A DNA stretch of 64,000 nt from a virus, in the IMG/VR virus record IMGVR_UViG_3300045988_174402, one strand, 5' to 3'. The position numbers were made by a program, and so were the translations under genes. Within the stretch, counting starts at the first letter, position 1, and every line of letters starts with the position of its first letter. This document shows, piece by piece, positions 23,300 through 59,971 of the stretch. The notes beneath the pieces are model-generated. The model was not told the DNA's origin and searched no databases. It worked only from the letters and a program-made list of their open reading frames with translations.

Positions 23300-23340
23300 A
23301 AAAAATTAAAGGCAGGACAGGGAAATACCCCGCCCTGCCT
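23300..23340 (-). terminator. intrinsic terminator after gene 23369..24547
   Basis: GC-rich imperfect hairpin ggcaggacaggg/ccccgccctgcc, followed by a T-run on the minus strand. Confidence 0.6.
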
Positions 23341-23368
23341 TCTCTAAACACTTTTATATATTGAAGAA

Positions 23369-24547
23369 TTACGCGATTACCTTGAATTCTTTCGAGGCTT
23401 CTGAGCCATAATAAGAAACAGTAACTTTAAGTACATCACCTACTTCTGCAGTTTTTTCTGAAACAACAGATAATAGACCTGATGTTTTACCAATTTCGTA
23501 TTTACCATCAGCGTTTTCTACAGCATACGTAACATCTTTTGTAACATCGCCACTAATTGCAGGACCTGAAATAGTTTGCTTAATAGAAACTTTTCCAGCA
23601 TTAATGTCTGCAACAGTTAGATCAGCATCATTTAGAATTGTAATTTTGAAAAGTGCATCAGGAATGTCTACAATAACTTCTGAACCAAATGCTTCTTTGA
23701 TTGCTGTTTCAAACTCATCAGCAATAGAACTCAATACATAGAAAGTATGAGTAGTAATTGACTTCAGAGCCTGACCAACAGTACCTTGTCCATGAAGACC
23801 TCTACGAGGTGAGCAATATCCAAAAGAATATTGAACATAGAGACCACCCTTAACAGGATACTCCTCTTCATTTAAAGCATCATACCGAAGATTAGGATAA
23901 CTTGGGAATCGAAGATTCTCCTGAATCCATGCGGCTGTACCAACTTCCATTTCATTAGGAACATAGCTATCTTTGCGGTTAGCTTTAGAAAGTGCATCAA
24001 ATACTGTAACATACGTCCATTCGTTGCAAGCATCTGCAGGACATCCGTTGTTATCTGCAAGTTGTAATTCAGCTACTTTAATAGTCTGATGTGAATCAAT
24101 TCCACTAATTTTTACTTTATTAGTATCAACTTTTGTAACACGTGCAAATCTATAATTTTCAGGAATCGCCATTTCGATAGCTTTAATCATAATTTCCTGA
24201 GCATCAGCAAGATTGCTAGCATCAAGTTCGAATTCAGCCATAATTGGCTTACCAAACTTATACCAGGGATAAGCATAGTCTGAAAGATATTTTCCATCTA
24301 AACTAAAACCTACAATTACACGATAAATACCAGCGTCTGTTGGAACATTAAGTATAACTGAAGGAGCAACTCCTTTGTTGTACATTGTTTTATAAATAAC
24401 TCCATCAATTAGACCTTCTTTTCTATAATCTGCACAACGAAGTACACGAAATAGATTTACAGCTCCAGTCATTGCCTTGAAACGAGGAGTTACACCATCT
24501 TCAAGTACATTTGAATTGATTATTACTTCTTTTTGAAAATCAAACAT
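23369..24547 (-). CDS. putative major tail (tube/sheath-like) protein with C-terminal Ig-like domain
   Basis: Intact 392-aa ORF with no TGA, followed by a strong terminator. The C-terminal ~90 aa look like an Ig-like (Big_2-type) beta domain. The functional call rests on position only. Confidence 0.45.
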   Translation of the reverse strand: MFDFQKEVIINSNVLEDGVTPRFKAMTGAVNLFRVLRCADYRKEGLIDGVIYKTMYNKGVAPSVILNVPTDAGIYRVIVGFSLDGKYLSDYAYPWYKFGKPIMAEFELDASNLADAQEIMIKAIEMAIPENYRFARVTKVDTNKVKISGIDSHQTIKVAELQLADNNGCPADACNEWTYVTVFDALSKANRKDSYVPNEMEVGTAAWIQENLRFPSYPNLRYDALNEEEYPVKGGLYVQYSFGYCSPRRGLHGQGTVGQALKSITTHTFYVLSSIADEFETAIKEAFGSEVIVDIPDALFKITILNDADLTVADINAGKVSIKQTISGPAISGDVTKDVTYAVENADGKYEIGKTSGLLSVVSEKTAEVGDVLKVTVSYYGSEASKEFKVIA

Positions 24548-24574
24548 AGTTTTCTAATTTTTAAGTTAATAAAT

Positions 24575-25447
24575 TTATTTATTTCCAGGTACGGCTATAG
24601 TCTGATTAATAGGAACGTTTGTTTGTAATCTTGGATCACCTGCATTCTCTAATAATAGTCTAGTTACGATATTAATAATCTCGTAACAAACATAGTCTGG
24701 AAATTCCAGGGTTTGAGTATTATCTTCTGGTAATAATACATCATCCTGAGTCATGGAAACATACATAGGAGCTTTTACATAAGTAATATATACATTATTT
24801 AAACTTCAATTCGAATCGCCACTATGTATTTCCAAATTTACAGAAGATTGATTTACAATCCTTTTATATGGTTCTTTTAATGCATAAAATCGATATTTTC
24901 CATCCTCTGTTTTAATATAATTAGGACGATAACTACCTTCTTTAATTTCATTATCCATAACAGGATTTGTTACTGGTTGATCTTTTTCATTTCTATTAAT
25001 AATATAATAATATGGCTTCTTATGTGAAGGTTTCATATAATAATTATTAATAATACCTGCATAAAGATCTGCAGTTAATCTTTGACATGTTGAAGTAATA
25101 GTTCTTTGCACTCCATTTCCACATCTAGATTTATTTGAATCACTACCTGTAAATTCTGCAATACAATTCAACATATGTAAGTAATCTTTAGGAAGTTGTA
25201 GCTCTCAAACAGTATCATTAAATTCCTGTCTTGGAGCAATTTTACCTACTTTAATTACTGATGTAGTTTGTAAAAATCCTAAGTCATCTGAACTTTGTTG
25301 ATTGTACTCACTTCTATTATATACACTATTTATATATTGTTGAATTGCTTTATTAAACAAGTATATGAAGTCCTCAAGTAAAACTTGAGGAGCTTTCACC
25401 TTGTTGCATTCAACTAAAATGTATTCATATGCTTGTCTAATAGTCAT
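24575..25447 (-). CDS. hypothetical head/tail-joining region protein (290 aa)
   Basis: Track ORFs 25205..25447, 24806..25174 and 24575..24766 share one frame and are joined through two TGA codons. Confidence 0.6.
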
Positions 25448-25456
25448 TATATATTG

Positions 25457-26338
25457 TTATTTATTGCTTTTCTTCTTTTCCGTCTTTTCAACTTTTTCCT
25501 CAGCTTTATCTTCAGCCTTTTCCTCTACTGTTTCTTTTAAACTTAGTTTCTGAAGATCAGGGTATGTCTCTAATGTAATACCCTCGTAGATAGTTTTATT
25601 TGCAGGAATCTTCAAGAAGAGTAAGATAGATTCGTCAGTTGTACCTAGACGAACATCCCCATACATCCAAACTCCACTTTGAAGGTTAATAACACGTTGT
25701 TCTTTTGCATCAATAAGCAGCAGTTTAAGTGCTGTATCTGATCCTGTATAAAGGTCAATAACAACCATTGGATCTTTTTCCGCTCTTTGATATAAATAGT
25801 CCTGAACATCTGAGTCAGGAGCATTTCTCATTGATTTGCCAAGTAACCTTGTTTTGGTAAGTCTTCCTTTAGCAGAATCTTGTTCAATATAAGTGAACGC
25901 TTTTGTTACAAGCTTCATACGTTCGATACGTTTTTCAGATTCAACTCCAGGTCTTTCTACATAGAATTCAGCTTGACCATAACGTTTTGGACCTCCGTCA
26001 ATTAAAAGATTACCTTTTGAATCTTTAGAATCTCTTTCAGGTGCAATTAAGAATGAATCTTTAATGCAAGTCCAAATATTTCTTTCTAGAGGATTATCTA
26101 AATCAAACGTTTTACCATCATAAATCTCTATTCGTTCATCTTCCTTAATAAAGTAATTACTATCAGGACTATTAATTTCTGCTTCACTTAAGATCATTTC
26201 TGTATCTCCACTAGCGTCTACCTGACGAACTCTTTTTACAAAAGGATAGTTTGAACCATTTGCTTGTTTTAAAGGATTAATAAAGCAATGTGCTTTTTCC
26301 TTACCATATACATTTCTTAAAGTTACTATATTATTCAT
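25457..26338 (-). CDS. hypothetical capsid-associated protein (293 aa)
   Basis: Intact TGA-free ORF immediately downstream of the putative capsid gene. Confidence 0.7.
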   Translation of the reverse strand: MNNIVTLRNVYGKEKAHCFINPLKQANGSNYPFVKRVRQVDASGDTEMILSEAEINSPDSNYFIKEDERIEIYDGKTFDLDNPLERNIWTCIKDSFLIAPERDSKDSKGNLLIDGGPKRYGQAEFYVERPGVESEKRIERMKLVTKAFTYIEQDSAKGRLTKTRLLGKSMRNAPDSDVQDYLYQRAEKDPMVVIDLYTGSDTALKLLLIDAKEQRVINLQSGVWMYGDVRLGTTDESILLFLKIPANKTIYEGITLETYPDLQKLSLKETVEEKAEDKAEEKVEKTEKKKSNK

Positions 26339-26401
26339 ATTTATTCTTATTAAATTTATCTATACCAAATAATGATATCTAAGTTTTAAATATTTTGTAG
26401 A

Positions 26402-26419
26402 CTTCTCCCGAAGGAGAAG
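26402..26419 (-). other. stem-loop downstream of putative capsid gene
   Basis: Hairpin cttctcc-cgaa-ggagaag. It lacks a clean U-tract, so I do not call it a canonical terminator. Confidence 0.4.
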
Positions 26420-26449
26420 CCTACTAATATTCTATTCTATCTTTTTATA

Positions 26450-27859
26450 TTACTTTTCACTAACTAAGATAAAGCTACGATATGGGTTGAATACACCAAC
26501 ACCAGCATAACCCCAGTCAATAAGTTTAGTTGCAGCTACTGGGCTTGCAACAGGACCACTTTCACGTCCACTTCTACGACCAACACCCTCTAACCAGTTA
26601 TGGCAGAACTCATTGTTCTTGAATGTGAACATTGCAATAGCGGGTTTTCCACTAGCAGCATCAGCAGTCAGATCAAGGAAGATACCATATTTCTTCTCAG
26701 GGAATTCGATATCAAGAGCACGGTCAACTTTGAAAGTTACAGTATTACCTGCATACTCGTATGAGTTATAGGTTGCACCAACTTTGATATAATCATTAGC
26801 ACCCTTAGAGAACATGAATGTACCAACAGTCTTCCAGTCACGAAGATATCCTGACAGACTATCTTGAATTTCAGCCCACATAGGAGTATTGCAAATAAAG
26901 ATATATTTATTGCCAGTAGGATTATTTGATTTAGCGATCATGGCAAGGATAGCGGTATTCATAACTTTATTAGTCATCTTTGAATACACATATTTACCTG
27001 CGAAACGCTCAATCTGAGGAATAATACCATCGCCAGAGATAATAGGCTCACCTGTTTCAGGATCAAAGATCTTAGGTTTACCATTCTTATCTACGTTAGT
27101 CTTACCCCAAAGCAGTGCATTTGCACGAGCAGCCATGAAGTTATCAAGACAATCTTTTTCTGCAGCATTCATTTTGTAAACAGGATCACTTTCTGTTCCT
27201 TTACCAATCTGAATGAAAACGTCCTCCATTGCACGATACTTAGCAGTGTAGTCTACATCTGCACGGTGTGTTGCAATAAATGTACGATGCTTTTCAACAT
27301 TTGACTGATACTTAACGTATCCTTCCTCATGCATTTCAGGCTGATAGTTCGTTAAGAAACGAGTCTTCATACCTGGCTGGCAGAATTCAACATCAAGAGT
27401 AGCATTGTAATCTGAATCTTGTAGTTTACCTACAATCTCCCAGTCTCTATCTGATCTACGAACAGGACGTGACAGGAAGATAACTTGCTGACGTGATCCT
27501 TCGATGATCATTACGTCATTTCTCTGATAATAATTTTCAGGGAAGTGGAAGATGATATCAGTACCCTGAGCACCATCGCCATCAGGAACCTGTAGGAAAG
27601 GAATTCTCTTAATAAATCCTACATTAATGTCCCACTCTACCATAAATGAATTAATACTTTGGAAACTATTTTTCTTGTCTTTTTCCATTGTATATATATT
27701 CATCAGAGATTCAGTAAGGTACGATGCGGTATACTGCTCATAAAGTGATGATACAATACCAAGACGTGCAGGTTTTTCACCTAAAAATTTGTAAAAATCC
27801 TCATATGTACGAGTTGAACTCATCTGAGGACGTACTGTACTAAAACTAGAAATTCTCAT
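26450..27859 (-). CDS. putative major capsid protein (469 aa)
   Basis: Large intact ORF preceded by an acidic scaffold-like gene. All 7 Trp codons are TGG, and the region looks more G+C-rich. The call rests on position and size, not on a database search. Confidence 0.6.
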   Translation of the reverse strand: MRISSFSTVRPQMSSTRTYEDFYKFLGEKPARLGIVSSLYEQYTASYLTESLMNIYTMEKDKKNSFQSINSFMVEWDINVGFIKRIPFLQVPDGDGAQGTDIIFHFPENYYQRNDVMIIEGSRQQVIFLSRPVRRSDRDWEIVGKLQDSDYNATLDVEFCQPGMKTRFLTNYQPEMHEEGYVKYQSNVEKHRTFIATHRADVDYTAKYRAMEDVFIQIGKGTESDPVYKMNAAEKDCLDNFMAARANALLWGKTNVDKNGKPKIFDPETGEPIISGDGIIPQIERFAGKYVYSKMTNKVMNTAILAMIAKSNNPTGNKYIFICNTPMWAEIQDSLSGYLRDWKTVGTFMFSKGANDYIKVGATYNSYEYAGNTVTFKVDRALDIEFPEKKYGIFLDLTADAASGKPAIAMFTFKNNEFCHNWLEGVGRRSGRESGPVASPVAATKLIDWGYAGVGVFNPYRSFILVSEK

Positions 27860-27881
27860 ATTGTTTAATTTAATTGTTTAT

Positions 27882-28949
27882 TTATAATTCGTCATCTCAT
27901 AATGACGCGATTGATTTATCTGGATTTGATTTATTTTTCTCTTCATTAGTAGGTATTACAGTTGAAGGTTTAGGAGGCTCATTCTTAGGAGCTGCGGGCT
28001 TCCTAGTTTCCTTAATTAAACTCTTATAATACTGAGAAATACCTGAAATAGCATCTTTACCAAAGAGACGATACCAAGCAAGCTCTACAAGAACTTGTGG
28101 ATCATTTAAATCTTTAAAGAACTGGCTAGCTCCATTTTCATCTTGATCTAGAATATAACTAAAGATCTCTTGTTTATCGTGATCTTCAATTTGTAAACTA
28201 TCAGATTTTTCATCTTGATAGTCAAGAGAGATTTCATTGAAATTTACTAACTGTTCCTCAAGTGTTGATTTAAATGCGTTATACTGTTCCTCTTGAGCTC
28301 TTTGTGCATCTTCTACTGCTTTATCTTCTTGTGCTTTATATTGGTTTCGAATTGTCTCTACCTTTTTCTTAAATAAGTCTTCATTACTCTTTGCTAAGTC
28401 TAAATCTGCTTGAATTTCCTCTTCAGTCATACCTTCAAACTTAGATTTAAGATCGGCAATATACAATTCTTCATCAGAGTAATCATCTACAGAATAAGCT
28501 TTATTTACAGGACCATTTTGATTAATATAGTCTTGCACTGCTTTCTGAGAATAATATTCAATAACGTCCTGAATAGTTGCGTTATTATTTCTTAAATATT
28601 CAATTGTTTTAACTTCATCATCAGATAAATCAGGCTTAGCTAATTCATTTAGAATATTTAATTGTTCATCTCTATCCAACGAACTAAAGTCTACTTCTTG
28701 TTCATTACCTTCTTCATCTTGATAAAGTAAAGTTTTTCCATCTCTTAGTCCTCTACTTTTCAAGAACTCACTAAACACGTCTAAACCCTCGCCAGTATTT
28801 AGGTCAGGGTTTTCAGGAGGTTCTTGGTTAGTAGGACTAGGTTCAGGTTCTGGCTCACTATTAGTATTTTGATCTGTAATAGGAGTTTTGTCTGTTGGTT
28901 CTGGATCTTCTAATAGAAAATCCATGTGATTTTGTCCATCGATAATCAT
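27882..28949 (-). CDS. putative scaffolding protein, acidic (355 aa)
   Basis: Asp/Glu/Pro/Gln-rich and coiled-coil-like, located directly upstream of the capsid gene. The track ORF ends at TGA 27897, and the true stop is TAA at 27882-27884 (SIASL-W-DDEL). Confidence 0.55.
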
Positions 28950-29001
28950 AATTCTTATTTTTCCTTATTAATTGATTATTAATATGTTTATATATTCGCA
29001 G

Positions 29002-29009
29002 CAAATATA
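29002..29009 (-). promoter_or_regulatory. -7 box TATATTTG
   Basis: Minus-strand TATATTTG, 53 nt upstream of the ATG at 28949. Confidence 0.45.
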
Positions 29010-29049
29010 ATGTATTAATTTTTAATTTCCAAATAAAAAAGAATATTTT

Positions 29050-29352
29050 TTACTTTTTCTCTGAAAATAGATTAAATTTTCAATTAATTGCTTCTTTTCG
29101 AATATCTTTAACATATATTTCATCTATTGGTAGGTAGTTTGATATATTATCTACAATTCCATTAATATCATAATATACATTTTTAATTTTAGTAATAACA
29201 TGATCACAATTATAATATGCTTCTGCTTCTGGAAATATGTATTTTAATATTAAATATAATTGATAACAACTACCTTGAGTATAAACTTTTTCAGAGCCAA
29301 TAAAAGACTCTCTTATTAGTTGTATAACTTTTATTGGCTCTAGACTATACAT
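29050..29352 (-). CDS. hypothetical protein (100 aa)
   Basis: Track ORF 29080..29352 reads through TGA to TAA at 29050-29052. Confidence 0.6.
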
Positions 29353-29374
29353 AATTTACAAATATTTCTATTTA

Positions 29375-29701
29375 TTAACTTTGTATTGCCTCAACAAAGT
29401 CTAGAATATTATCAGTAATAGATCCAGCTTTATCAAGCTTATCAATAAGTGACTTTAAGAAATCAACTTCACTATCTGTAAATTCAACTGTTAAAAGTTC
29501 CTTTTCTGGTAACCAAACAATTTTGTTATCTTTATTCTCAATTTTCAATGCTTCTACTTCTTCACTTGAAAAATCAATCTTTTTTCTAACATTACGCTTT
29601 GAGATCATTTCAGTTACTGAACCTTGTTCAGGTAAATTCATAAGTAACATTAATCGTGTAGCTACATTTAAATCAATTTTTTTCATTTTAGTTTTATTCA
29701 T
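29375..29701 (-). CDS. hypothetical protein (108 aa)
   Basis: Intact ORF ending in TAA, with a promoter motif 28 nt upstream. Confidence 0.65.
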   Translation of the reverse strand: MNKTKMKKIDLNVATRLMLLMNLPEQGSVTEMISKRNVRKKIDFSSEEVEALKIENKDNKIVWLPEKELLTVEFTDSEVDFLKSLIDKLDKAGSITDNILDFVEAIQS

Positions 29702-29728
29702 ATTAGTTCATATTTTAGTTAATAATCG

Positions 29729-29736
29729 CAAAGTTA
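29729..29736 (-). promoter_or_regulatory. -7 box TAACTTTG
   Basis: Minus-strand TAACTTTG between the terminator at 29786-29815 and the ATG at 29701. Confidence 0.45.
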
Positions 29737-29785
29737 AAGATTATTTAATAAATAAACAAATTTTTATACAAATTATTGTATATAA

Positions 29786-29815
29786 ACAGAAAAGGAGTGA
29801 CATTTCTGCCACTCC
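29786..29815 (-). terminator. intrinsic terminator after gene 29823..30200
   Basis: Stem ggagtgaca/tgccactcc with one mismatch, followed by a T-run on the minus strand. Confidence 0.55.
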
Positions 29816-29822
29816 TCTCTAT

Positions 29823-30200
29823 CTATTCATTTAACATATCTTTTAGTTCAATTAAATCTTGATGACTTAAAACTAAGGCTCGATTTACCAAAGGTAAATT
29901 CATCTTTATTTTTCCGCTCTCGATTTCAAGTTCTCCTAGAAATCCACTATTGACTTTGAAAGGTTTAGTGTTAATTACATTATCAATCATTTCAGATAAT
30001 ATACCATTAACGTCAACCATACCATCTTTGTCAGCGATTTGTTTTAACATTCCTTCAACTTTATAAGCATTGTTGTCAATTACTCTAGTTATCAAAGGCT
30101 TAGCAAATGCCATCATTGGATTGCTTTGCGACAATGAAGTTAATTGTTTATCAACAAAATTATTAAGTCTAGTCATTATTACATCTACGTGCTGCGCCAT
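29823..30200 (-). CDS. hypothetical protein (125 aa)
   Basis: Intact ORF ending in TAG. Confidence 0.65.
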   Translation of the reverse strand: MAQHVDVIMTRLNNFVDKQLTSLSQSNPMMAFAKPLITRVIDNNAYKVEGMLKQIADKDGMVDVNGILSEMIDNVINTKPFKVNSGFLGELEIESGKIKMNLPLVNRALVLSHQDLIELKDMLNE

Positions 30201-30658
30201 TGTTTAATAAATTCTTCATAAGTTAAACCTGGGTTATCTTTAGAGAATTCGCGGAACTTTTTAAAGATAGCCATCTCATTATCTGTCTCTTCTACTATCT
30301 TGTTCTTTAACTTCTTAACTAATTTTAGCTGTCTTTGTAATAAGTCCTTACCCTCTGAATTACTTTCAATTTTGGCTTTTACTAAATTGAGTAATTCTAC
30401 TTGCACCATTTGTTGTAATGAAGCTGTAATTTCTGAATATTCTTGATCTTCAAAAAATCTAGCTTTTTGACTTTCTGTTAAAGAACTCATCTCTTTATCT
30501 ATATCATCTCATATTAAATCAGTCTGGAGAGTTCCCTTCTTCTGCAGTTGTGCTAGTTGGGCTTCATATTGTTTTAATATTTGCATCTGACTTGTAATAT
30601 CAGATTGAGATAATAGAGGGTCTGAATTACCTAGGAAAACTTGATTCACAGGATACAT
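30185..30658 (-). CDS. hypothetical coiled-coil protein (157 aa)
   Basis: Track ORF 30185..30490 extends upstream through one TGA to the ATG at 30656-30658 (MYPVNQVFLG), which is preceded by TAA. Confidence 0.55.
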
Positions 30659-30679
30659 CTTTTATTTTACTTTAAATTA

Positions 30680-31678
30680 CTAGGCCGCTGGTGTTGTAGT
30701 TGGCTCAAACAGAATACTGTTTGAATAACCTGCACAAGGACAAAGTGGATTATAAAGTGAACGTTGTACTGTATCAGTTCCTACTTCTACAGCAGCTACA
30801 CGGATAGGATAGAAAGTGTTATTAGCATAGTTAACAATCTTGTTGTCAGCACACATTCTACGTTCTGCTTCAAGACCTACCATACCAGCTACACTAGCAA
30901 TCTCCATCTTAGTAACTTTGCTTCTCCAAGGCTCTACAGCAGCATTAACAGCAGCTGCAGTTTCAAGTTTACCAATCCGATCAGCTAATACATCGAATTG
31001 ATCTCTTTGATTTTTATACAGCCCGAAGTCAGCGTCGATCTGGCTCTTGTAAAGTCCAAACATTTCACCATTAATAGTCTGACGATCGTTAAAACGAGCG
31101 TTTGCAGACAGTAAAGCAAAATCATAAAGAGCTTTCTGATTAGCTAACTCAGCATTGCAAGAGTGTTGCCAAGCTTGGAATGTCGTTGGACCACCAGTAA
31201 TAGCTTCAGCAGCTAAAGCACCAGCAGCTGCACTACCTGTATTTCCAAGTCCGAATAAACCTCTTCCGCTAAGAGCTAAAAGTCCTAATGCGGTTCCAGC
31301 AATACCTACAATATTTTCACATAAGGTCGTTAATCTTATGCAGTTCTCTTATGAACTTCTACATCTTTATATATACATGTAGTTAAGACTATATCTTCAT
31401 CCAATTTGGATGCTCCCCATTTCGCACTACTTAGTGCTACTCTCTTCCGAGATAGTCGTTGAACTTTCAAAGATATTTCTATCTAAGCTTAGCTGCTGAT
31501 TGTCCATTTCTGGAGTTTCCAGCAATTAAGGGAGTTTTGCATATAATATTACTATTATAAGGACCTAGTATATTAAGCCTAATCCAGTACCAGCTACACC
31601 TTTTGAAGCATATTCTTTTTCACCACAATTTTCGTATACATCTTTATGTACCATTTCTTTCTTTTCTACTACTTCCAT
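30680..31678 (-). CDS. intron-interrupted structural gene: exon 1 31581..31678, exon 2 30680..31319 (about 245 aa spliced)
   Basis: Exon 1 reads MEVVEKKEMVHKDVYENCGEKEYASKGVAGTG and then hits TAG just past the predicted splice site. The exon 2 frame is open from 31348 to TAG at 30680. The predicted junction GTG-F-ENIVGIAGTALGLL keeps the frame (98 nt + 640 nt). Confidence 0.6.
31320..31580 (-). ncRNA. group I intron (261 nt, no ORF)
   Basis: Minus-strand matches to the classical P/Q/R/S elements: aattgctggaaa (31516-31527), aatcagcagc (31492-31501), gttcaacgacta (31453-31464) and aagatatagtc (31387-31397). A U-G pair is possible at the 5' splice site (ctggatt/ggtcc), and the terminal nucleotide is G. 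The 54 nt at 31451-31504 are identical to 47749-47802. Confidence 0.75.
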
Positions 31679-31730
31679 AGTTCTATTATTTTTTAAATTA
31701 ATTAAATCTATTTATTGTAAGCTTACAGTA

Positions 31731-31738
31731 CAAAGATA
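31731..31738 (-). promoter_or_regulatory. -7 box TATCTTTG
   Basis: Minus-strand TATCTTTG, 53 nt upstream of the ATG at 31678. Confidence 0.45.
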
Positions 31739-31774
31739 TAGCCTAAATAATCTAAAACATAACGTTGCTATAAA

Positions 31775-31810
31775 ATAAAAAAATCCCCTTAAGTCTTTCA
31801 ACCTAAGAGG
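31775..31810 (-). terminator. intrinsic terminator after HTH gene
   Basis: 9-bp stem (cctcttagg/cttaagggg with two G-U pairs), followed by TTTTTTTATTTT on the minus strand. Confidence 0.55.
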
Positions 31811-31841
31811 ATTACAATTGTGAATAATTAGTAACTTGTTA

Positions 31842-32150
31842 CTAATTATTCTCTATAAATTTATCTAGATCTTTCTTATATCAAAACAATTCCTTAAATC
31901 CTATTTGTTTACGTCCTTTGGGAATCTTATTTGCTCTAACATAATTGTCAAAAGTAGCTCTACTAACTTTTAAGTACTTACAAGCTTGATATTTACTGAG
32001 TTTCTCGTTCTTATTAGTTATTTCAGAAAGATACTCAATTACTTCCTCACACTCTTCGGTACTAAGATTAGAATTACCAGTATCAATATCGTTAACAATC
32101 TTTAATAAAAGTTCCTTAATTAGTCGCATCATATCCGTATACTGCTCCAT
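31842..32150 (-). CDS. small helix-turn-helix DNA-binding protein (excisionase/AlpA-like HTH)
   Basis: The segment LSKYQACKYLKVSRATFDNYVRANKIPKGRK is HTH-like. The track ORF ends at TGA 31881, and the true stop is TAG at 31842-31844. The start overlaps the fibre gene end by 35 nt. Confidence 0.5.
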
Positions 32151-34218
32151 TAACTAATACTATACTAGAATTAATATAAGTTATACAATAACATTTATAA
32201 GTTCCACCTGTTAGACTTCCTAAATCTTTCATTTCAGTATAAATTGTATTGTTAAAAGAAATACTTGATGAAGCTGGAATAACAATAATTGCATCAGGAT
32301 TATTCTCTGAAACATATAAACTACTAACTTCATAAGAAGCTGCAGTTCCAACAAATATACCAGGTTGTCCTGGAGTAGTTACTGTTGCTAATTTCTTAGA
32401 AAAGACCTTATCTAAATTTAAATTAGCAGTTGCAGAACCAGTATAATTTGTAGACGACCCTCCTGCTGTAATGTTTAATGCGTAAGGGTTTGGAAGAGCG
32501 ATAGGAATGTCATTAACATTTGCTGGAGTGAACCCCAAAGCTGTCTTAACTGCAGTATCTCGTAAAAGAGTATAAGCAGTACCATCCTCTAGAGTATATA
32601 TAGCCATTTCAGCACCTCCAGATTCCGTATATCCTGTCTTAATTCCTCCTAAGATATTATCTTTGGCTACTGGTAATGTATATGAAGATCCAGGAGCACT
32701 ATTAGTAATAGTTAAAGTTCCATTAGCAAGTGTTAATCCTATACCAGTGCCATTTGCAATAGTTAGAGTTGTAGAACTATCACTTAAAGTTGTACTTCCG
32801 ACTTTAACTGGCCTCCAAGTATTTTCTGTAGAATAACCTTGATTAGTAACCCAACTTTCAGTTGCATATCCATTTAAAGAAGGTATTTTATCGTCAACTT
32901 GCTTTTTTGTATACACTTCTGTTGTAGTATAGTAGTTTCCTAAAGTTGTATTTAAATCAACAGTTTTGACATAACTACTTAAAGTAGCATTATTGACTTT
33001 ATTATTTAACTGAGTTGTAATAACTTTATTTTGTACAGGGTTTTCTGAAGTAGTACTTAAAGCTGAATCAACTGTAATAGCTTCTGGAATTTCTGGAAAA
33101 TCAGTAATTTGTGATACTGTATGTGTATGATTCTTAACTGCAAAAGATCCAACATTATAATTAGAATCTTTAATAGTTTTTCCATTAGTGCCACTAAATA
33201 ACACAATATTTGAATCAATTGAACTTGAAGGCCCTGTTATATCTCCCATGCCTGCTTGCGCTGCATCTGCAGGTCTATATCCTAAAGCATCAATAATATC
33301 TTGTTCGGTAGGATTTAGCTCAGATAGAGAAGTAGGAACTACAATATTTGCAACTCCCTCTTTTGAACCATTTCATGGATCAAGGAGATCGACCCCATTC
33401 TTTTGAATCTTCAAAACTTCAGGAGTTATAGAACCATTTGTTGTAATATTATTAATACGTAAAGTATTATTAGAAATCTTATTATCTAAACCATTTGTAA
33501 TAGTATCTACTTGTGATTTAGTATAATAATCAGATAAGTCAATATCTGTTGTTCCTATCTTTTCTCAAGCTCCTTCAACATAGATGTATTCATCATGTAC
33601 ATCAGTTCCTGTTCCAGACTTTTTTACTAAATAGATAATATTACTTTCTCCTACACTAGGAAGACTATTAACAATTGTAATCTGTAAATTAGCTAAGCTA
33701 TCAATAAGATCTTTTAATACTTTACCTTGTTTGGCAGATAAAGACTTTTCTGTTTCAGAACTTGTAAGATTATCAACAATAGAAGATTTAATTTGATTAC
33801 TAATTTCTGTATTTACGATATTAGTAATATTATTATTAATAGTAGTAATGCTATTATTAATAGTTTCTAAATCTGCATCTATACTTGTATTTAATGAATC
33901 AATGGCATCTTTTACTCCTCCAGATAATACTAAATTTACACTATCTTTAGTAGGAACTAAATCTGCATTGTTAATTTTATCTACAGCAATTGGTGCAGTT
34001 GTAAGTGAATTATTAAATTCTTCTTCAGTTCCTTTATAACCTCCTTCAACAGCTATTGTATAAGCATCTTTACCTTTTAAGGATAAAAGTCACTCATCAA
34101 GAGTTCCCTTATAACCTTGTTGTACAGCTAACTCATATGCAGATCTACCAGGAGCTCCAATTGAACCAGGGAATATAACCCACTTATTTTGCGTTTTATC
34201 AAAATATTTTACACTCAT
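32116..34218 (-). CDS. tail fibre protein (700 aa)
   Basis: ATG at 34216-34218. The N-terminal GAPGRSAYELAVQQGYKGTLDEWLLSLKGKDAYTIAVEGGYKGTEEEF repeat is typical of phage fibres. Internal TGA codons include 33565-33567. The C-terminal ~150 aa are paralogous to the next gene. Confidence 0.7.
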
Positions 34219-34236
34219 AATTATATATTTTTAAGA

Positions 34237-36381
34237 TTATGCATATACTGCACCGTTAACGGCAACCTTACCATTTGCCATATAACTCAAACAATAGATA
34301 TAATAAGTTCCACCAGCTAAATCTCCAAGACCATCCATCTTAATTGCATTAGAAGCATTAAAAAATATTTTGTTAGTACTTATAATAACAGCATCAGGGT
34401 TACTCTCAGAGAAACCATTTAAACTAGTAACTGTTCTAGTTAACGTATTACTGTAACTATATCCAGCGTTTATTGTAGTTGAGAGCTGAGTTCCAGTAAA
34501 ACTAGTAGTCGTTATTAAAGGTTTTGGTGTAGTTATTGAAACTGCAGATGAGCCTGTGTATGAAGTACCATTAATTGTTAATGCATAAGGATTAGGTAAT
34601 GCAATGGGAATTTCAGGTATATCACTAGTCTTTGCGGGTGTAAATCCTAAAGCAGATGTTACATTAGCTGAGGTTAATGAAATAGTTCCAGAAGATACTG
34701 AAATATTACTTCCAATTTTCACTCCACCAAGCACAGAAGCAGTAGCTGCAGGAATACTTGTTAAATATCCGTGACTAGTTACTCAATTTTGAGTAGCATA
34801 CCCTGATAAGGATGGGATAGTTGGTTTATTAGTTAAGTCATTATAAGATCCACTTGTAGCTACAGTAGCGAATGTTGGTTTACCTGTTACTCCAGACCAA
34901 GGTACACTAGTTGCACTTCCTGCTGTGAATTCTTTAAATTTAGTAGCAAAAGTAGATGCAGATTCGGATACGCAGAAGTACATAGGACCTCCTGAACCAA
35001 TCTGAACAACATCTCCTTCTTGTATAGTTAAACTCATTGCGGCAGATTGAGAATCTACTACAAACAGCCTTTCTAATGCAGCTGCAGGAATTTTTTCAAT
35101 AGGAATTTCTGGCAACCTATTAGCATCAATAGTTCCAGTAAGTTTTTCAGCATTAATAGTACTTATTGTTGTGTTTATAGTCACATTTTTAGATCCATTA
35201 AATGATTCTGTAGTAGAACCAGTGACATCTCCGTTTAAAAATATCTTTCTACCATACATTAATGTTTCTGCAGCTGATGTTTTAGAAGCATATGGTACAG
35301 TAAAGTCATCAGAGATTTTATTTCCAACAGTTACCTGTATATAATTCTCATTCCTACTAAGTATAGGTTTTGTTGCAAGATTTGTAGCTGTAGTAGCTGT
35401 AGTAGCTGTAGCTGCATTACCAGTTATATCAACTTGAGCAGGATGTACGTGATCAGAGCGTGAATAAGCATTATCTGTTCCAGGAGATGCTTGCCCTAAA
35501 GGTTTTGGATCCGTATTTGATGGCATAATAGCTGCAAAGCTTGATGTTTTTTCTCCCGTAGGTTTAATTATTCCAACATATCCAATCGTATTGAAAGTAT
35601 TAGCATCATTTATACCTGTGAATGAAAAATATATGTTAATATTATTAGTAGTGGCTTCTTTTTCTATTACATTAGCTGTAAATCTGGAAGTTGGATCCGT
35701 AGAATCAAATATTGTTAATGGTTTTTTAGAATTAAATGCCTCTAAAGCAGTATTATAATCCTCAACTGTTTGGGAATTAAGATCTATAGTAAGAGGCAGT
35801 ACATCGTTTTTATTTGCAGCATCAATATTTTCACGAGCTAGAGTTTTATTAGAATCAGAGAGTGTTTGCGTTCTATCATATCTTATTGTGCCAGTATCTA
35901 CAAATTGTGAATTTGTGCTATATATAATTCCTGTAGTAATACTTATTCTAATCAACTCTAATTGAGAACTAGAATTTATTTTAAAGAAATAATGGTTACT
36001 GGAATCATCATTACCTCTTACATATATAAGGCTAGTTTCTTTAACTAATAAAGCTGTAGCTTTTAAACGTTTAGTTTTTTCAGCAGCATCAGGAGAAGTA
36101 GTTGCATTAATATCTGATTGAGAAATAACATGGACGTTTCACCCCAAATTTTTAAATACTTGATCTTGTTTTTCAGTAGTTACTTCTTGAGGAAGTAAAG
36201 AAAGCGAATTAGCATCACATTGATATTCTTTCCCTCAAGTACAAATAGTTGGTCCTTCATCAATAAATGAGATATAAGCATCGAAAACCTTACGCTCTTC
36301 ACTACCTTCAGTAGTTTTTGCTCTCTCAGCTTCGTATGATGCTTTAGTTTTAAAATGTAAAAATTTTGTTTTATATGCCAT
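34237..36381 (-). CDS. tail fibre protein (714 aa)
   Basis: ATG at 36379-36381. Track ORFs 34783..35955 and 34237..34734 share a frame and are joined through TGA. The C-terminal module (IALPNPYAL...NPDAVII...GGTYYIYC...VNGAVY) is shared with gene 32116..34218. Confidence 0.7.
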
Positions 36382-36421
36382 AGCGTCTATATTTTATATA
36401 GCACCTATAATATTATAGGTT

Positions 36422-36456
36422 AAAAATAAAGGGAATAGGGAAATCCCTATCCCCTT
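36422..36456 (-). terminator. intrinsic terminator after fibre gene 36468..38069
   Basis: 13-bp stem aagggaataggga/tccctatcccctt, followed by a T-run on the minus strand. Confidence 0.7.
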
Positions 36457-36467
36457 ATTATCTTAAT

Positions 36468-38069
36468 TTATTCGAATTCAACTCAAGTCATTAAACTATC
36501 AGCATAAGCCTTCACATCGCTAGCTTCAGCAAGACCTTTAGCACTTGAACTTGCACTAGCTACAGGTTGTAGCATAGAAGTAACTGTTACTGTAGTTCCA
36601 CTTTTACTAGTTGCGATATAAGTAGCAGCAGTGCCATTAACTGCCTGAATTGCAGAATCAGCTTTAGCACCTTGAGCAGCTTTAGCATAAGTACTTGATT
36701 CGGTATAAGCCGCACTCTTAAGACCATTAACCGTACCTTTAAGCTGCTTTCCCGACATGCTAAACTTAACCTGCCCATTAGTAACATTAGTAGTATCTAC
36801 AGTAATAGCCCCAGTTTGTCCACTAAATGATATAACTCTACTCTCAGTAAGGTCAGTTATTCTATCATCCATCGATTCAAGTACACTTTGAATTGGATTT
36901 TGCCCAAAATGCTCTCCTCCCGCTTCAATATCTGCACCAGTAAGTACTACATCAGCTGATAATGGTTTACTATTAACGGTTCTTGTAGTTGGAACTTTAC
37001 CAGCTAATGCAGTATCGAGTCCAGATATTTTAGAAGTAGGTAAAGTAGGAATATCAGAATCAGTAAGACCTGTTCCAGCAGTTACTAAACCTTTGGCATC
37101 ATAGGTAATCTTACACGCTGTACCTGCTGTAATACTTGCATTTGCAGTTATTTTTCCATTAACAGTTGTTGTTAAATTATTAAATGCAGTTAAAGTAGGT
37201 ACTTCATCTTTCTTAGCGTAAGTAGATAGATCAATTGTTCCACCTAACTTATCCCACATTTCTGTTTGATTACCTGCACCAGCCTTAATTGCTACAAAGT
37301 TTGAACCAGCTTCAAAAGCTTCTCCATTTAGAGTACCTGCAGTAGCTACATTATAAACATCACCGATAACAACTCCTGTAAGGGCAGTAAGAGCTGCAGC
37401 ATTATCTACAGAACCCTTCATCTTGTACACACTACCAACAGCAGAGGCCACTTTATTGTCAACTTCTGTTTTAGTGTATGTAGTAGCTTGAGGAGCTGCT
37501 GCTTCAGCCGTAGCTTTAACTGCATTAAGAGCAGTTGTAGTAGCTTTAGCGGCTAGATCTGTAGTCAGGCTAGTTACTTTACTTTGAGGAATTTCTCCTA
37601 CAGCAAATGTAACAGTACTAGTTCCAGACTGAGTAACTGTTTTGCCATCTCCCTTATAAACAATAGCGGCAGGAATTTTGCCAATCATAGTATCTGTATA
37701 TGATTTAGCGGAACTAATTGCAGACGATTTTGCTTCATCTGTATATTTCTTCAGTCCATAATAACTCTGTATAGTTGAGGCATCTCCAGATGCTCCAATA
37801 TTTAACTTCTTTGCAAGTTCTGTAGTTACCGAAGATGCCGATGCTACATCTGATAGATTTAGAGAAATCTCTTCTCCGCTTTCATTAATAATTTTAAGGG
37901 TTTTAGCACTCTCATCCCAGCTTGCAGATTTGACGCCATCACCAAATTTATCAACAGCAGTAGCACTTGTTGCTACTTTAATCATACCTGTTGATGTTTC
38001 AAAATATATTCTACCTGCTACAAGACCACTTTCTGGAACTGTAGCAATTTTTTGAAAACTTAATTGCAT
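36468..38069 (-). CDS. tail fibre protein (533 aa)
   Basis: Track ORF 36483..38069 ends at TGA, and the true stop is TAA at 36468-36470 (LMT-W-VEFE). It carries the fibre motif MWDKLGGTIDLSTYAKK. Confidence 0.7.
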
Positions 38070-38129
38070 TCTTTTTTAAATTTTAATCTCCTCCCCTTCA
38101 CTAAATGTGAGGAAGGGAGAAATTATTAT

Positions 38130-39290
38130 TTATTCAATTTCTGATCAAAATATATCAAGCTTACCGTCTGTTCCAACTTGGATAGATGAACTTGTTGATA
38201 CTAATTTAGACATATCTACAGCTAAACCTCTAGAAGTACCTTCACCAGTTACCTTAATAGTATTATCTGGACTAGTAATAGATGTAATGCCACCTGCAAC
38301 AGCAGTTTTAATACTATCACTAAGAGCTTTCATACCTTCAGCAACTGTTTGATCTGCACCAATTTCAGCACCGCCAGTAATTGCTACTCCTACTTTTATA
38401 TTGTTACCAGCAACCCTTGCCCTGTTTACTCTAAGTCCACTTTCAGATTTTGCTAATATATTATCAGAAACAGGATCAATTTTAACATCAATAACATTCG
38501 CTTCTGAAATCTCAACAGCATCACCAGCTGTAAGAGCTTCTTGCTTATCTCCAACAGATGTTTGTAAATTCGCAATATCAGCCTTATTCGTTCTAATCTG
38601 ATTTAAATCTGTATCTGAAATTAGACCTGAGCCTTCAACCTTATCAACTTTATTTGCAAGTTGATTAGTAACAGTAGTAATCTGTCCTTCTAAAGCTGTA
38701 TCAGCTGCTTCAAGTTCTGTTTTTGCTGCAGAAATAGCGCCATCTACTTGTGATTTAGTATAGTAGCCTGAAAGATCAATTGTACCTCCCAGAGGGTCCC
38801 AAGCTGCACCATCCCAGGCATAATTTGTACCTGCAGGAGTAGTACCATGAGCAGCAACTACATTCCAAACATCACCTTTCTTATTTCCTTTAGTAGGAAG
38901 TTCTTCGTAAGTATCTTTAGTACCTTTGTAGTCAAGAGCTGCAGCTACAGAAGCTTTTAGTTCATCTACAAGAGTTTTTAAAGCTTTACCTTGTGCTGCA
39001 GAAAGAGCAGCATCAGTTCTATCACTTTCAAGTGAGTTAATAATCTCTACAACTGTGCCAGTTGCAAGAGGTTCCCAAACTCGGTTAGAACCATCAGCAT
39101 CAAAGCCTTTTAATACATAAGTGGTTTTATTTTCCTTTACATATACTAAAAGGCCTTCTACTAACTGAATAGTAGGCATTGAATCACGTTCAGCAATTGT
39201 AGCCTGAACTGTTCTATTATCTAATGGTAGATTCGCACCTAAGTCAAAACCAGAACCTACCGAAATACCTTTACCAAAAAATTCTGCCAT
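38130..39290 (-). CDS. tail fibre protein (386 aa)
   Basis: Track ORF 38145..39290 ends at TGA, and the true stop is TAA at 38130-38132 (DIF-W-SEIE). It carries the motif AWDPLGGTIDLSGYYTKSQVD. Confidence 0.7.
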
Positions 39291-39292
39291 AA

Positions 39293-40408
39293 TTAGTTAA
39301 AGTTTACATAGTAAGTACTAGGTTGCGTCATCTTACCAGATAAATATACTGTGTAATTAACAGCTTGACCATCTAAACCAGTAACCGAAACTGTACTAGT
39401 AGTATATGAACTAGTTACATCAAAGTTATTACTGTCTTTAATATTTGAAACCGATCAACCTGCAGGAGCAGCAAAACAAATATATTGTTCTGAAATTGGT
39501 CCAGCTACTTTAATTGTTTTCTTTGCAGAAGTAGTTTTAGTTAATCCTTTAATTACATCTTCTGTAATTGAAGCTGTAGAAACTAAACCTGAATAAGCAG
39601 GAATATATCCTGTTACTGTAACTGCACTTGAATCTACTGATCCTGCAGCTAAAGGAGTACCATAGTCGTTACCTTTAGAATCTTTAGGTTGAGGACCTTG
39701 TGCATGAGCAGCGTGATACTTATATGACATTGAGCCTTTAACTACCTTTGCGGGAAGTTCTTGAGATGAGCCATATAAAATATACGAATTCTCTGGATCT
39801 AAAGCTCCTGCGCGTTTTGCCTGCTCTTTTCCTGCGACTAAAATCTGGCCTTGATTAAATCCAGTATTAAAATTTGCAGCGGTTGGAGCATTTGCTCCTA
39901 CTTCCTGAGTATTTGAATAGCCCTTTAAAGAAATAGTTGCAGTTGGAGCTACAAATGTGGGATTAACTGTTGGGAAGATAAGAGTATCAAAAATTTCATC
40001 ATAACTCTTACCTGTAAGTTGTGCTACAGTTGTACCTGCGTTAATGCCCCCAAGTTTCTCTACTGTTGCTACACTAGGATCTAACGAAGATTCATAAGAA
40101 CCACTTGCTGTAGGATCTAAACTATCAAGTTTAGCTTTATCTTCTTTAGACATAAGACCATCTGCAGTAACCGTAGCTTTACCTAGTAACAAAGTTGTAG
40201 ATGAGGAATCTGTATATGTAATTACAATCCCATTAGCATTGGCATTTAATGCTACATTTGATACTTTCTTATTAGAATCGCCACCATATTCAGTGCCATT
40301 CATAATAATTTTCTTAGTATCTGTGGCAAAATAAATACCATCAGCATGCGTAGTGGAATTATAAGAAGCTTGTGGACCTCTATAAAATTTTACAACACTA
40401 TTAGCCAT
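39293..40408 (-). CDS. fibre-associated protein (371 aa)
   Basis: Track ORF 39455..40408 continues through TGA for 53 more codons to TAA at 39293-39295. Confidence 0.6.
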
Positions 40409-42393: not shown

Positions 42394-42398
42394 ATAGT

Positions 42399-58063: not shown

Positions 58064-58067
58064 AGGT

Positions 58068-59535: not shown

Positions 59536-59536
59536 T

Positions 59537-59968: not shown

Positions 59969-59971
59969 CAT

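What the first reader, a model, noticed from the sequence alone, without database searches (positions are those of the whole stretch)
23369..40408. Strongly uneven TGA use: head, tail and some fibre genes are TGA-free or carry one TGA a few codons from the end
The putative capsid gene (7 Trp, all TGG), 25457..26338, 23369..24547, 29375..29701, 29823..30200, 7227..7556, the GroES-like gene and several others have no TGA. In other genes the only TGA sits 4-16 codons before the real stop: scaffold SL-W-DDEL, fibres LMT-W-VEFE and DIF-W-SEIE, 29050..29352, and the HTH gene. These genes would yield nearly complete proteins under either code. In contrast the 1537-, 1591-, 1087- and 1056-aa genes, terminase, portal, nuclease and lysin are unusable without suppression. 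This split suggests either staged expression tied to a code switch or different evolutionary origins. The TGA-free genes also look more G+C-rich by eye.
Basis: partly seen in the sequence, partly recalled or inferred. Interest (0 to 1): 0.65.

Follow-up and report, generated by a model that had tools for sequence, protein, structure and literature searches.

The report
Capsid genes avoid the recoded stop codon
In this gut crAss-like phage, which reads the stop codon TGA as tryptophan, the capsid, scaffold and some fibre genes almost never use TGA except near their ends, most likely because TGA is costly to translate; this refines a known phenomenon.

Summary
The window is the late (virion and lysis) half of a crAss-like phage of about 170 kb, probably Zeta group, that reads TGA as Trp.

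**In the window**
- 56 genes hold 154 TGA and 104 TGG.
- The TGA:TGG ratio differs among genes (p=0.0005).
- The number of TGA-free genes (13) matches what gene length alone predicts (11.8).

**Across diverged relatives the split is conserved (TGA/TGG)**
- Avoiding TGA: capsid 0/30, 23369..24547 0/31, 25457..26338 0/9, scaffold 2/11, two fibres 4/19 and 6/24.
- Background is 58% TGA; terminase is 116/41.
- A TAG-recoded relative depletes TAG in the capsid gene and 23369..24547, with the same trend in 25457..26338.

**Terminal TGAs**
- They encode conserved Trp residues, written TGG in other lineages. They are not relic or working stops.
- TGA is tolerated more near C-termini (stratified odds ratio 2.9, p=0.009).

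**Interpretation**
- Best reading: selection against a costly recoded codon, strongest in what are probably high-copy virion proteins.
- A different evolutionary origin for these genes is rejected. Staged expression is weakened, because sibling strains carry one TGA in the capsid gene.
- No tRNA(UCA) was found in about 135 kb.
- This is an extension of known gene-family bias in recoded phages.

The parts
26450..27859 (-). Major capsid protein gene. It has 0 TGA and 7 TGG.
   Evidence: Pfam PF23898 Crass_capsid, 34.5 bits against a cut-off of 27. Across representatives below 85% identity the count is 0/30. Across all 58 loci it is 13 TGA against 388 TGG.
25457..26338 (-). Conserved crAss-like structural-block protein of unknown role. 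It has 0 TGA and 2 TGG.
   Evidence: The count is 0/9 in representatives and 0/99 in 55 loci. The predicted fold matches uncharacterised proteins of Cellulophaga phi14:2, Azobacteroides phage and crAss-like viruses.
23369..24547 (-). Protein with Ig-like beta-sandwich domains. It is the last gene of the head unit and has 0 TGA and 3 TGG.
   Evidence: The count is 0/31 in 12 representatives and 1/128 in 54 loci. The structure model is low-confidence and matches only Ig/cadherin-like folds.
27882..28949 (-). Scaffold-like acidic protein. Its only TGA is at 27897..27899, five codons before TAA.
   Evidence: Position. The C-terminal Trp is TGG in lineages B and C (SKWDELL) and Tyr in MT835470 (SIYDLD*). 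The family count is 2/11.
24575..25447 (-). TGA-using gene inside the head unit. It is the counter-example to a block-wise code.
   Evidence: The window has 2 TGA and 0 TGG. Seven representatives give 8/0.
29050..29352 (-). Small gene with a single TGA at 29080..29082, ten codons before the stop.
   Evidence: It matches PHROG 4814, of unknown function.
31842..32150 (-). HTH DNA-binding protein gene with a single TGA at 31881..31883, thirteen codons before TAG.
   Evidence: PHROG 668 HTH. The same Trp is TGG in lineage D (LFWLKRDL).
36468..38069 (-). Fibre gene with a single TGA at 36483..36485, in the tail W-V-E-F-E.
   Evidence: Position. The same Trp is TGG in L015 and L035 and TGA in L034. 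The family count is 4/19.
38130..39290 (-). Fibre gene with a single TGA at 38145..38147, in the tail W-S-E-I-E.
   Evidence: Position. The standard-code relative ends AMAWHEVTE*. The family count is 6/24, and 4 of the 6 TGA are at this terminal Trp.
39293..40408 (-). First gene of the TGA-poor fibre unit. It has 1 TGA and 0 TGG.
   Evidence: The family count is 1/2.
23308..23342 (-). Strong terminator-like hairpin (15-bp stem, T run) directly after 23369..24547. It marks the end of the head unit.
29790..29819 (-). Terminator-like hairpin after 29823..30200. It marks the upstream limit of the head unit.
36429..36456 (-). Terminator-like hairpin after fibre gene 36468..38069. It marks the end of the fibre unit.
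49311..51620 (-). Large terminase gene, a TGA-rich contrast with 10 TGA and 2 TGG.
   Evidence: Fifteen representatives give 116/41 (p=4.6e-5). Its closest annotated relatives are crAss-like terminases.
40420..45569 (-). Two collagen-like repeat fibre genes, TGA-rich contrasts with 12/7 and 11/17.
   Evidence: The terminal tail W-N-D-V-N-N of 40420..42393 is conserved, with TGA in 7 of 10 representative relatives; one more has a terminal TGA in a different tail and two have diverged C-termini.
57785..63774 (.). Lysis-proximal region, where 85% of Trp codons are TGA in the 60-65 kb bin.
   Evidence: The lysin is a 669-aa Glucosaminidase-domain protein in L066. 59498..59968 has 3/0 and 63148..63774 has 5/0.

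Best explanation
The phage reads TGA as tryptophan, but TGA remains a costly codon. Most likely a fraction of ribosomes terminate at it, or are delayed, in a host that keeps the standard code.

AT-biased mutation keeps turning TGG into TGA. Purifying selection removes these changes with a strength that depends on two things: how much of the protein is made, and how harmful a truncated copy would be.

This gives three expected outcomes:
- Genes for proteins that are probably made in high copy number for assembly (major capsid, two neighbouring head-unit proteins, scaffold, some fibres) stay at or near zero TGA.
- Probable low-copy genes (terminase, portal, giant proteins, lysis genes) drift to 60-90% TGA.
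- A TGA a few codons from the stop is nearly harmless, so conserved C-terminal Trp residues are the places where TGA survives even in the avoiding genes.

What is shown and what is inferred:
- Shown: the conserved, gene-specific and position-specific codon pattern, and that TGA encodes Trp.
- Inferred: that the cost comes from competition with termination, and that the avoiding genes are the most highly expressed.
For: (1) TGA encodes Trp. Forty-five window TGA positions align in the standard-code relative with W (18), Y (11), F (6) and L (3).

(2) Family-level counts over representatives below 85% amino-acid identity, as TGA/TGG:
- capsid 0/30
- 23369..24547 0/31
- 25457..26338 0/9
- scaffold 2/11
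- fibres 4/19 and 6/24
- background 58% TGA
- terminase 116/41
- 19207..20946 45/10

(3) Synonymous sites are close to random between these representatives. In the capsid gene, Lys/Glu/Gln A-versus-G identity is 0.54 against 0.51 expected, and four-fold site identity is 0.53 against 0.42. The unchanged TGG codons are therefore not mainly shared ancestry.

(4) Convergence. In the TAG-recoded relative, TAG makes up 51% of Gln codons overall. It makes up only 4/23 in the capsid gene (p=0.0013), 2/15 in 23369..24547 (p=0.004) and 0/4 in 25457..26338.

(5) Single TGAs segregate in the capsid gene of sibling strains at two different Trp positions, and in lineages D and E. There is never more than one per gene. 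This is the pattern of slightly deleterious mutations.

(6) Position effect. In the avoiding families 7 of 13 TGA lie in the last 13 codons, against 17 of 129 TGG (p=0.0015). Stratified over all families by Mantel-Haenszel, the odds ratio is 2.9 (p=0.009).

(7) TGA is under-used genome-wide. It makes up 60% of Trp codons, whereas other NNA/NNG codon pairs are 77-93% A-ending.

(8) TGA fraction falls as G-ending Lys/Glu/Gln codons rise (Spearman -0.53, p=0.0016). The capsid gene is the most biased gene.

(9) Early and tRNA-region genes are TGA-poor (9-24% in the bins from about 85 kb outward; 21-43% at 75-85 kb). This is expected if the host reads TGA as stop.
Against: - No expression or virion copy-number data exist for this phage. 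The roles of 23369..24547 and 25457..26338 are unknown.
- These two genes show at most moderate general codon bias, the first more than the second.
- The expected avoidance of a strong termination context (T after TGA) appeared in the window (p=0.0003) but was not replicated in 17 relatives.
- No tRNA(UCA) was found in about 135 kb of this lineage. How TGA is decoded, and so why it would be costly, is not established.
- Representatives within a family are not fully independent. This applies most to fibre 36468..38069 and to 23369..24547.
- The set of 'avoiding families' used in one position test was chosen after seeing the data.
Confidence: 0.55

Rival explanations
1. Translational staging. 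The head unit and the fibre unit are kept readable by the unmodified host machinery, so their products accumulate before, or independently of, the switch to TGA = Trp. Packaging, tail, cargo and lysis proteins wait for suppression.
For: - TGA-poor genes cluster in two co-directional units that end at strong terminators (head 29.7-23.3 kb, fibres 40.4-36.4 kb).
- These units have 2.0-2.3 TGA per 1000 codons, against 8-10 elsewhere.
- Their TGA fraction resembles that of the early region.
- The few TGAs they hold are mostly so close to the stop that termination there gives a near-complete protein.
- Borges et al. propose recoding as a timer for late and lysis genes.
Against: - Nine sibling strains with a 99-100% identical capsid carry an internal TGA at Trp251 or Trp328.
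- The TAG-recoded relative has 4 TAG in its capsid gene and 19 in its scaffold gene.
- 24575..25447 inside the head unit is 8/0 TGA across lineages.
- The portal, which is needed to start procapsid assembly in tailed phages (established knowledge), has 2+1 TGA.
- 39293..40408 has a TGA 54 codons from the end.
Confidence: 0.17
2. The terminal TGAs are relics of ancestral TGA stop codons that are now read through to the next TAA/TAG, or they still work as stops. The short W-x-E-x-E tails would then be accidental.
For: - TGA is enriched in the last 10 codons (12 genes against 4 expected) while TGG is not.
- The standard-code relative ends 22% of its genes with TGA.
- In AT-rich DNA the next in-frame TAA is expected within about 15 codons (inference).
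Against: Wherever a comparison was possible, the terminal Trp is a conserved residue followed by a conserved tail:
- HTH-like 57785..58063: NAAKWNK against NAASWSK* in the standard-code relative.
- Fibre: FWSEIE against AWHEVTE*.
- Scaffold: LWDDEL against KWDELL, where the Trp is TGG.
- HTH 31842..32150: TGG in lineage D.
- 40420..42393: WNDVNN conserved in seven of ten representative relatives.

Confidence: 0.05
3. Composition only. The TGA-free genes are more GC-rich, so TGG is favoured by the same neutral or general bias that acts on all A/G-ending codons.
For: - GC content correlates with TGA fraction at -0.30.
- G-ending Lys/Glu/Gln usage correlates at -0.53.
- The capsid gene has GC3 of 0.29, against about 0.12 elsewhere.
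Against: - In the window, 23369..24547 and 25457..26338 use 76% A-ending Lys/Glu/Gln codons. Across representatives the figures are about 66% and 78%. Yet their TGA/TGG counts are 0/31 and 0/9.
- Even the capsid gene uses 50-58% A-ending Lys/Glu/Gln codons but has 0/30 TGA.
- The effect on TGA is far larger than on any other codon pair.
Confidence: 0.05
4. Different evolutionary origin. The head and fibre genes were acquired from a standard-code phage.
For: The GC content of these genes is slightly higher.
Against: - Gene order is conserved, and identity levels are comparable with neighbouring genes, across standard, TAG and TGA relatives.
- The pattern persists at synonymous saturation.
- The same families are depleted in TAG in the TAG-recoded relative.
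Confidence: 0.03

Closest known systems
Stop-codon-recoded gut phages with gene-family bias in recoded-codon use (Borges et al. 2022; preprint 10.1101/2021.08.26.457843)
   Same: - The phage reads a stop codon as an amino acid.
- Early genes are compatible with the standard code, while late and lysis genes are recoded.
- Gene families differ significantly in their use of the recoded codon against its synonymous standard codon. The lysis-proximal genes here are the most TGA-rich.
   Different: In the parts of that work I read, the reported biases are families that prefer the recoded codon (lysis genes, a tail tube gene) and integrases that avoid it. Structural genes are treated as recoded as a class.

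Here the capsid gene, two head-unit genes, the scaffold gene and two fibre genes, all inside the recoded module, avoid it. A C-terminal tolerance effect is also seen. I found no report of either in the papers read.
Zeta-group crAss-like phages (Yutin et al. 2021, PMC7886860; Lera phage, PMC12386605)
   Same: - Genomes of 145-192 kb.
- Many group I introns and inteins.
- Close branches use TGA, TAG or the standard code.
- A tRNA block is present.
- TGA occurs mostly in structural, terminase and lysis genes.
- Some recoded genomes have no detectable suppressor tRNA.

   Different: - Membership in the Zeta group was not tested by phylogeny.
- Lera carries tRNA(UCA) and tRNA(CUA). Neither was found in about 135 kb of this lineage.
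- In the passages I searched, those papers do not describe a capsid-specific absence of TGA.
Translational selection on codon usage in highly expressed genes (established knowledge)
   Same: The strongest avoidance falls on the capsid gene, which also has the strongest general codon bias. TGA fraction correlates with G-ending Lys/Glu/Gln use.
   Different: The disfavoured codon is a recoded stop, and the effect is near all-or-none. It is also relaxed in the last few codons. That fits a cost of truncation rather than a cost of slow decoding.
Native code 4 organisms and their phages (Mollicutes; established knowledge)
   Same: TGA = Trp, low GC content, and TGA is the majority Trp codon.
   Different: - Early genes here avoid TGA.
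- Close relatives use the standard code or read TAG as an amino acid.
- TGA is under-used relative to other A-ending codons.

These points indicate a host with the standard code, not a code 4 host.

Membership tests
Crassvirales (crAss-like phages) | Crassvirus-type major capsid protein | tested here: met
   Pfam PF23898 Crass_capsid, 34.5 bits against a cut-off of 27. There is also a weak match to the PHROG major head protein family.
Crassvirales (crAss-like phages) | Large terminase related to those of crAss-like phages | tested here: met
   After its own relatives, the best annotated tblastn hits are uncultured crAss-like phages cr60_1, cr52_1, cr55_1 and others, plus Bacteroides, Flavobacterium and Azobacteroides phages, at 25-30% identity.
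Crassvirales (crAss-like phages) | PD-(D/E)XK nuclease inside the structural block (Yutin 2021) | tested here: met
   The intein-less orthologue of 55010..56938 in L067 carries PF12705 PDDEXK_1, a weak hit.
Crassvirales (crAss-like phages) | Giant multidomain RNA polymerase (transcription) block and IHF in the structural block | not tested
   Giant ORFs (2628 aa and more than 705 aa) lie left of the window. No DxDxD or IHF analysis was done.
Zeta group of crAss-like phages | Genome of 145-192 kb | tested here: met
   Related contigs measure 168-178 kb.
Zeta group of crAss-like phages | [quoted passage not shown] | tested here: met
   Group I introns at 31366..31585 and 47596..47905. An intein-like insertion lies in the nuclease gene.
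Zeta group of crAss-like phages | Phylogenetic placement with Zeta reference genomes | not tested
   No Zeta reference sequence was at hand. The only close GenBank records are unannotated (MT835470, MT835492, MT835539).
TGA-to-Trp recoded phage (code 4 in late genes) | In-frame TGA in conserved genes, with long ORFs restored by code 4 | tested here: met
   The longest ORF is 686 aa under the standard code and 1597 aa under code 4. Genes are tightly packed under code 4.
TGA-to-Trp recoded phage (code 4 in late genes) | TGA aligns with Trp in standard-code homologues | tested here: met
   Of 45 aligned positions, 18 are W, 11 Y and 6 F.
TGA-to-Trp recoded phage (code 4 in late genes) | Phage-encoded suppressor tRNA(UCA) | tested here: inconclusive
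   None was found in the window or in about 135 kb of the same lineage. About 35 kb was not examined. Lineage D and two other relatives carry one.
TGA-to-Trp recoded phage (code 4 in late genes) | Early genes compatible with the standard code | tested here: met
   The TGA fraction is 9-24% in the tRNA/early region beyond about 85 kb (21-43% at 75-85 kb), against 50-85% in most late bins.
TGA-to-Trp recoded phage (code 4 in late genes) | Host uses the standard code | not testable with these tools
   The host is unknown. This is inferred from the early-gene pattern and from the relatives' codes.

The most novel reading that the evidence does not exclude
In this lineage TGA may be decoded without a dedicated tRNA(UCA). 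No such tRNA was found in about 135 of about 170 kb.

The phage does carry a tRNA-Trp(CCA) whose D-stem has a U11-A24 pair. From memory, that is the pair created by the Hirsh UGA-suppressor mutation of E. coli tRNA-Trp.

Decoding would then be intrinsically partial. The TGA map would work as a built-in attenuator that sets protein stoichiometry:
- high-copy head and fibre proteins carry no internal TGA;
- low-copy enzymes, portal, giant proteins and lysis proteins carry many;
- conserved C-terminal Trp-TGA sites yield two protein forms.
Probability: 0.1. Interest if true: 0.7.

Novelty: new member of a known kind. Interest (0 to 1): 0.38.

Why it matters
Current models treat recoded stop codons in phages as a lock on late genes as a class. 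Here the archetypal late gene, the capsid gene, and several neighbours are kept almost free of the recoded codon. This holds in both TGA- and TAG-recoded branches of one family, and TGA is tolerated near gene ends.

This suggests that the recoded codon carries a measurable cost. If so, the per-gene and per-position distribution of TGA would be a readout of that cost. This has three practical consequences:
- Suppression efficiency and its fitness effect become testable from sequence data alone.
- Annotators should know that capsid genes can look standard-code in a recoded phage, so capsid genes are poor markers for detecting recoding.
- The pattern makes a specific prediction about which virion proteins are made in the highest amounts.

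Tried and rejected
1. Relic or working TGA stops as the source of the terminal TGAs. Rejected for nine genes: the Trp and the tail after it are conserved, and the Trp is written TGG in other lineages.

2. A protein-level excess of C-terminal Trp. The standard-code relative shows no significant excess (18 against 15.2 expected; late region 9 against 6.0).

3. Avoidance of T after sense TGA, which would be a sign of competition with release factor. It was significant in the window but not replicated in 17 relatives. I treat it as chance.

4. Gradient of TGA along genes by decile. No clear trend.

5. Function of 23369..24547 and 25457..26338.
   - No PHROG, Pfam or PDB sequence hits.
   - The AlphaFold models gave only Ig-like folds for the first, or uncharacterised crAss-like proteins for the second.

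6. Search for the suppressor tRNA.
   - I walked from the window's right end through the tRNA block and on for more than 60 kb, and about 9.4 kb to the left.
   - I used ARAGORN at default and relaxed settings, Rfam, and a brute-force search for TCA anticodon loops.
   - No credible tRNA(UCA) was found in this lineage.

7. TAG stops followed closely by TAA. This is not unusual compared with what follows TAA stops.

8. Sigma-70 promoter scan. It was uninformative (85 sites against 83 expected), and the consensus is probably wrong for a Bacteroidota host.

Full report
**What the window is**

- The window has 31% GC, and nearly all its genes lie on the minus strand.
- With TGA as a stop the longest ORF is 686 aa. 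With TGA as sense it is 1597 aa, and the genes become tightly packed.
- The 469-aa gene at 26450..27859 matches Pfam Crass_capsid above its cut-off.
- The terminase is most similar to crAss-like phage terminases.
- Related contigs are 168-178 kb long.
- The window holds two group I introns and an intein-like insertion.
- The nearest GenBank relatives use other codes. MT835470 uses the standard code and MT835492 reads TAG as sense.
- All of this fits the Zeta group of crAss-like phages as described by Yutin et al. 2021 and Babkin et al. 2025. I did not place it by phylogeny.
- TGA encodes Trp. Window TGA positions align mostly with W, Y and F in the standard-code relative.

**Check of the observation**

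- On 56 curated genes there are 154 TGA and 104 TGG.
- The TGA:TGG ratio is heterogeneous (p=0.0005), mainly because of the capsid gene (0/7).
- The number of TGA-free genes (13) equals what length alone predicts (11.8). 'TGA-free' by itself is therefore not remarkable for the short genes.
- The excess of TGA in the last 10 codons is significant: 12 genes observed against 4.05 expected. TGG shows 3 against 2.7.

**Comparison with relatives**

I fetched about 150 loci around the capsid and terminase genes of relatives. For each gene family I counted Trp codons in representatives that share less than 85% amino-acid identity.

| Family | TGA/TGG |
|---|---|
| capsid 26450..27859 | 0/30 |
| 23369..24547 | 0/31 |
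| 25457..26338 | 0/9 |
| scaffold-like 27882..28949 | 2/11 |
| fibre 36468..38069 | 4/19 |
| fibre 38130..39290 | 6/24 |
| terminase | 116/41 |
| 19207..20946 | 45/10 |
| 49019..49327 | 17/2 |
| 24575..25447 (between two TGA-free genes) | 8/0 |
| all families (background) | 766/554, 58% TGA |

- Between these representatives the synonymous sites are close to random. In the capsid gene, Lys/Glu/Gln third-base identity is 0.54 against 0.51 expected. The persistence of TGG is therefore not mainly inheritance.
- In the TAG-recoded relative, TAG supplies 51% of Gln codons overall. It supplies only 4/23 in the capsid gene, 2/15 in the orthologue of 23369..24547 and 0/4 in the orthologue of 25457..26338.
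- The avoidance is not absolute. Nine sibling strains with a 99-100% identical capsid carry one TGA, at Trp251 or Trp328. Lineages D and E each have one. The total over 58 loci is 13 TGA against 388 TGG.

**The terminal TGAs**

- I first suspected relic TGA stops that are now read through. The evidence is against this.
- The Trp and the tail after it are conserved in the standard-code relative:
  - NAAKWNK against NAASWSK*
  - FWSEIE against AWHEVTE*
  - LWDDEL against IYDLD*
- In other TGA-recoded lineages the same Trp is written TGG in some and TGA in others.
- Position does matter. In the avoiding families 7 of 13 TGA lie in the last 13 codons, against 17 of 129 TGG (p=0.0015). Stratified over all families, the odds ratio is 2.9 (p=0.009).

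**Genomic context**

- A composite of about 125 kb of the same lineage was built.
- It shows 50-85% TGA among Trp codons in most of the late region.
- The head-gene bin (25-30 kb) has 15%.
- The tRNA/early region has 9-24% in the bins from about 85 kb outward, and 21-43% at 75-85 kb.
- The TGA-poor genes lie in two units that end at strong terminator-like hairpins: 29.7-23.3 kb and 40.4-36.4 kb.
- TGA is under-used overall. It makes up 60% of Trp codons, against 77-93% A-ending for other A/G codon pairs.
- The TGA fraction falls as G-ending Lys/Glu/Gln use rises (rho -0.53).

**Explanation**

- The best-supported reading is abundance- and position-dependent purifying selection against a costly recoded codon.
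- Shown:
  - the conserved gene-specific pattern
  - its convergence in a TAG branch
  - low-frequency segregating TGAs in the capsid gene
  - the C-terminal relaxation
- Inferred:
  - that the cost is partial termination
  - that the avoiding genes are the most highly expressed
- The staging idea is not excluded. It is weakened, and by the TGAs in the portal gene.
- Separate origin and pure composition are rejected.

**What remains open**

- No tRNA(UCA) was found in about 135 kb of this lineage, although lineage D and two other relatives have one. About 35 kb was not examined.
- The roles of 23369..24547 and 25457..26338 are unknown.
- A depletion of T after sense TGA in the window was not replicated in relatives.

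**Relation to what is known**

- Uneven use of recoded stops between early and late genes, and family-level tests of preference and avoidance, are published.
- The capsid/head/fibre avoidance within the recoded module and the C-terminal tolerance were not mentioned in the papers I read.
- This is a refinement of a known phenomenon, not a new kind of system.

Noticed in passing
window 31366..31585 (-), gene about 31676..30680: A group I intron (Rfam, 92 bits) interrupts a GC-rich gene. Its second exon is 97-98% identical in protein to lineages whose neighbouring genes are only about 70% identical.
   Followed up: partly
window 47596..47905 (-): A second group I intron (62 bits, seen only with permissive filters) splits the portal gene into 47872..49050 and 46506..47549. 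The two parts are contiguous in MT835470.
   Followed up: partly
window 55010..56938 (-): The PD-(D/E)XK nuclease gene carries an insertion of about 320 aa with LAGLIDADG motifs, which looks like an intein. The insertion is absent in MT835470 and in the 313-aa orthologue in L067.
   Followed up: partly
window 640..2535, 2538..7151, 7227..7556, 52208..53728 (-): A repeated motif K-(R/K)-Y-Q-x-G-G sits at the N-termini of three consecutive proteins. Similar (Y/F)-(K/Q)-x-G-G copies occur inside the 1537-aa and 506-aa proteins. It may be a shared targeting or processing signal.
   Followed up: no
L087 12936..13007 (15 loci of this lineage); L173 6203..6276: A conserved tRNA-like gene has intact acceptor, D and T arms, but its anticodon loop is about 3 nt short, so it has no usable anticodon. 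A different odd tRNA-like gene is found in lineage B2.
   Followed up: partly
L165 13375..13753; L187 1713..2071 and 2056..2283: The phage encodes a tmRNA within its tRNA block. In one contig a group I intron match overlaps the tmRNA's 3' end.
   Followed up: no
L187 13603..13675; L170 15205..15285; L190 20577..20648: The tRNA block of about 25 genes includes tRNA-Trp(CCA) with a U11-A24 pair. Lineage B2 carries a tRNA(CUA) although it uses TGA. Lineage D carries a tRNA(UCA).
   Followed up: partly
window 29823..32150: Four of the window's five TAG stop codons lie in this 2.3-kb stretch. Two of them are followed directly by TAA.
   Followed up: partly
L057, L058, L060, L062-L065 (capsid loci of lineages D and E): The capsid gene match is split over about 2 kb in these lineages. 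This suggests introns or other insertions inside the capsid gene.
   Followed up: no
composite, window-equivalent about 64-75 kb (L066-L069): Just right of the window lie a 669-694-aa glucosaminidase-domain lysin, whose C-terminal part is 63148..63774, an HTH protein and a ClpP-like protease gene.
   Followed up: no
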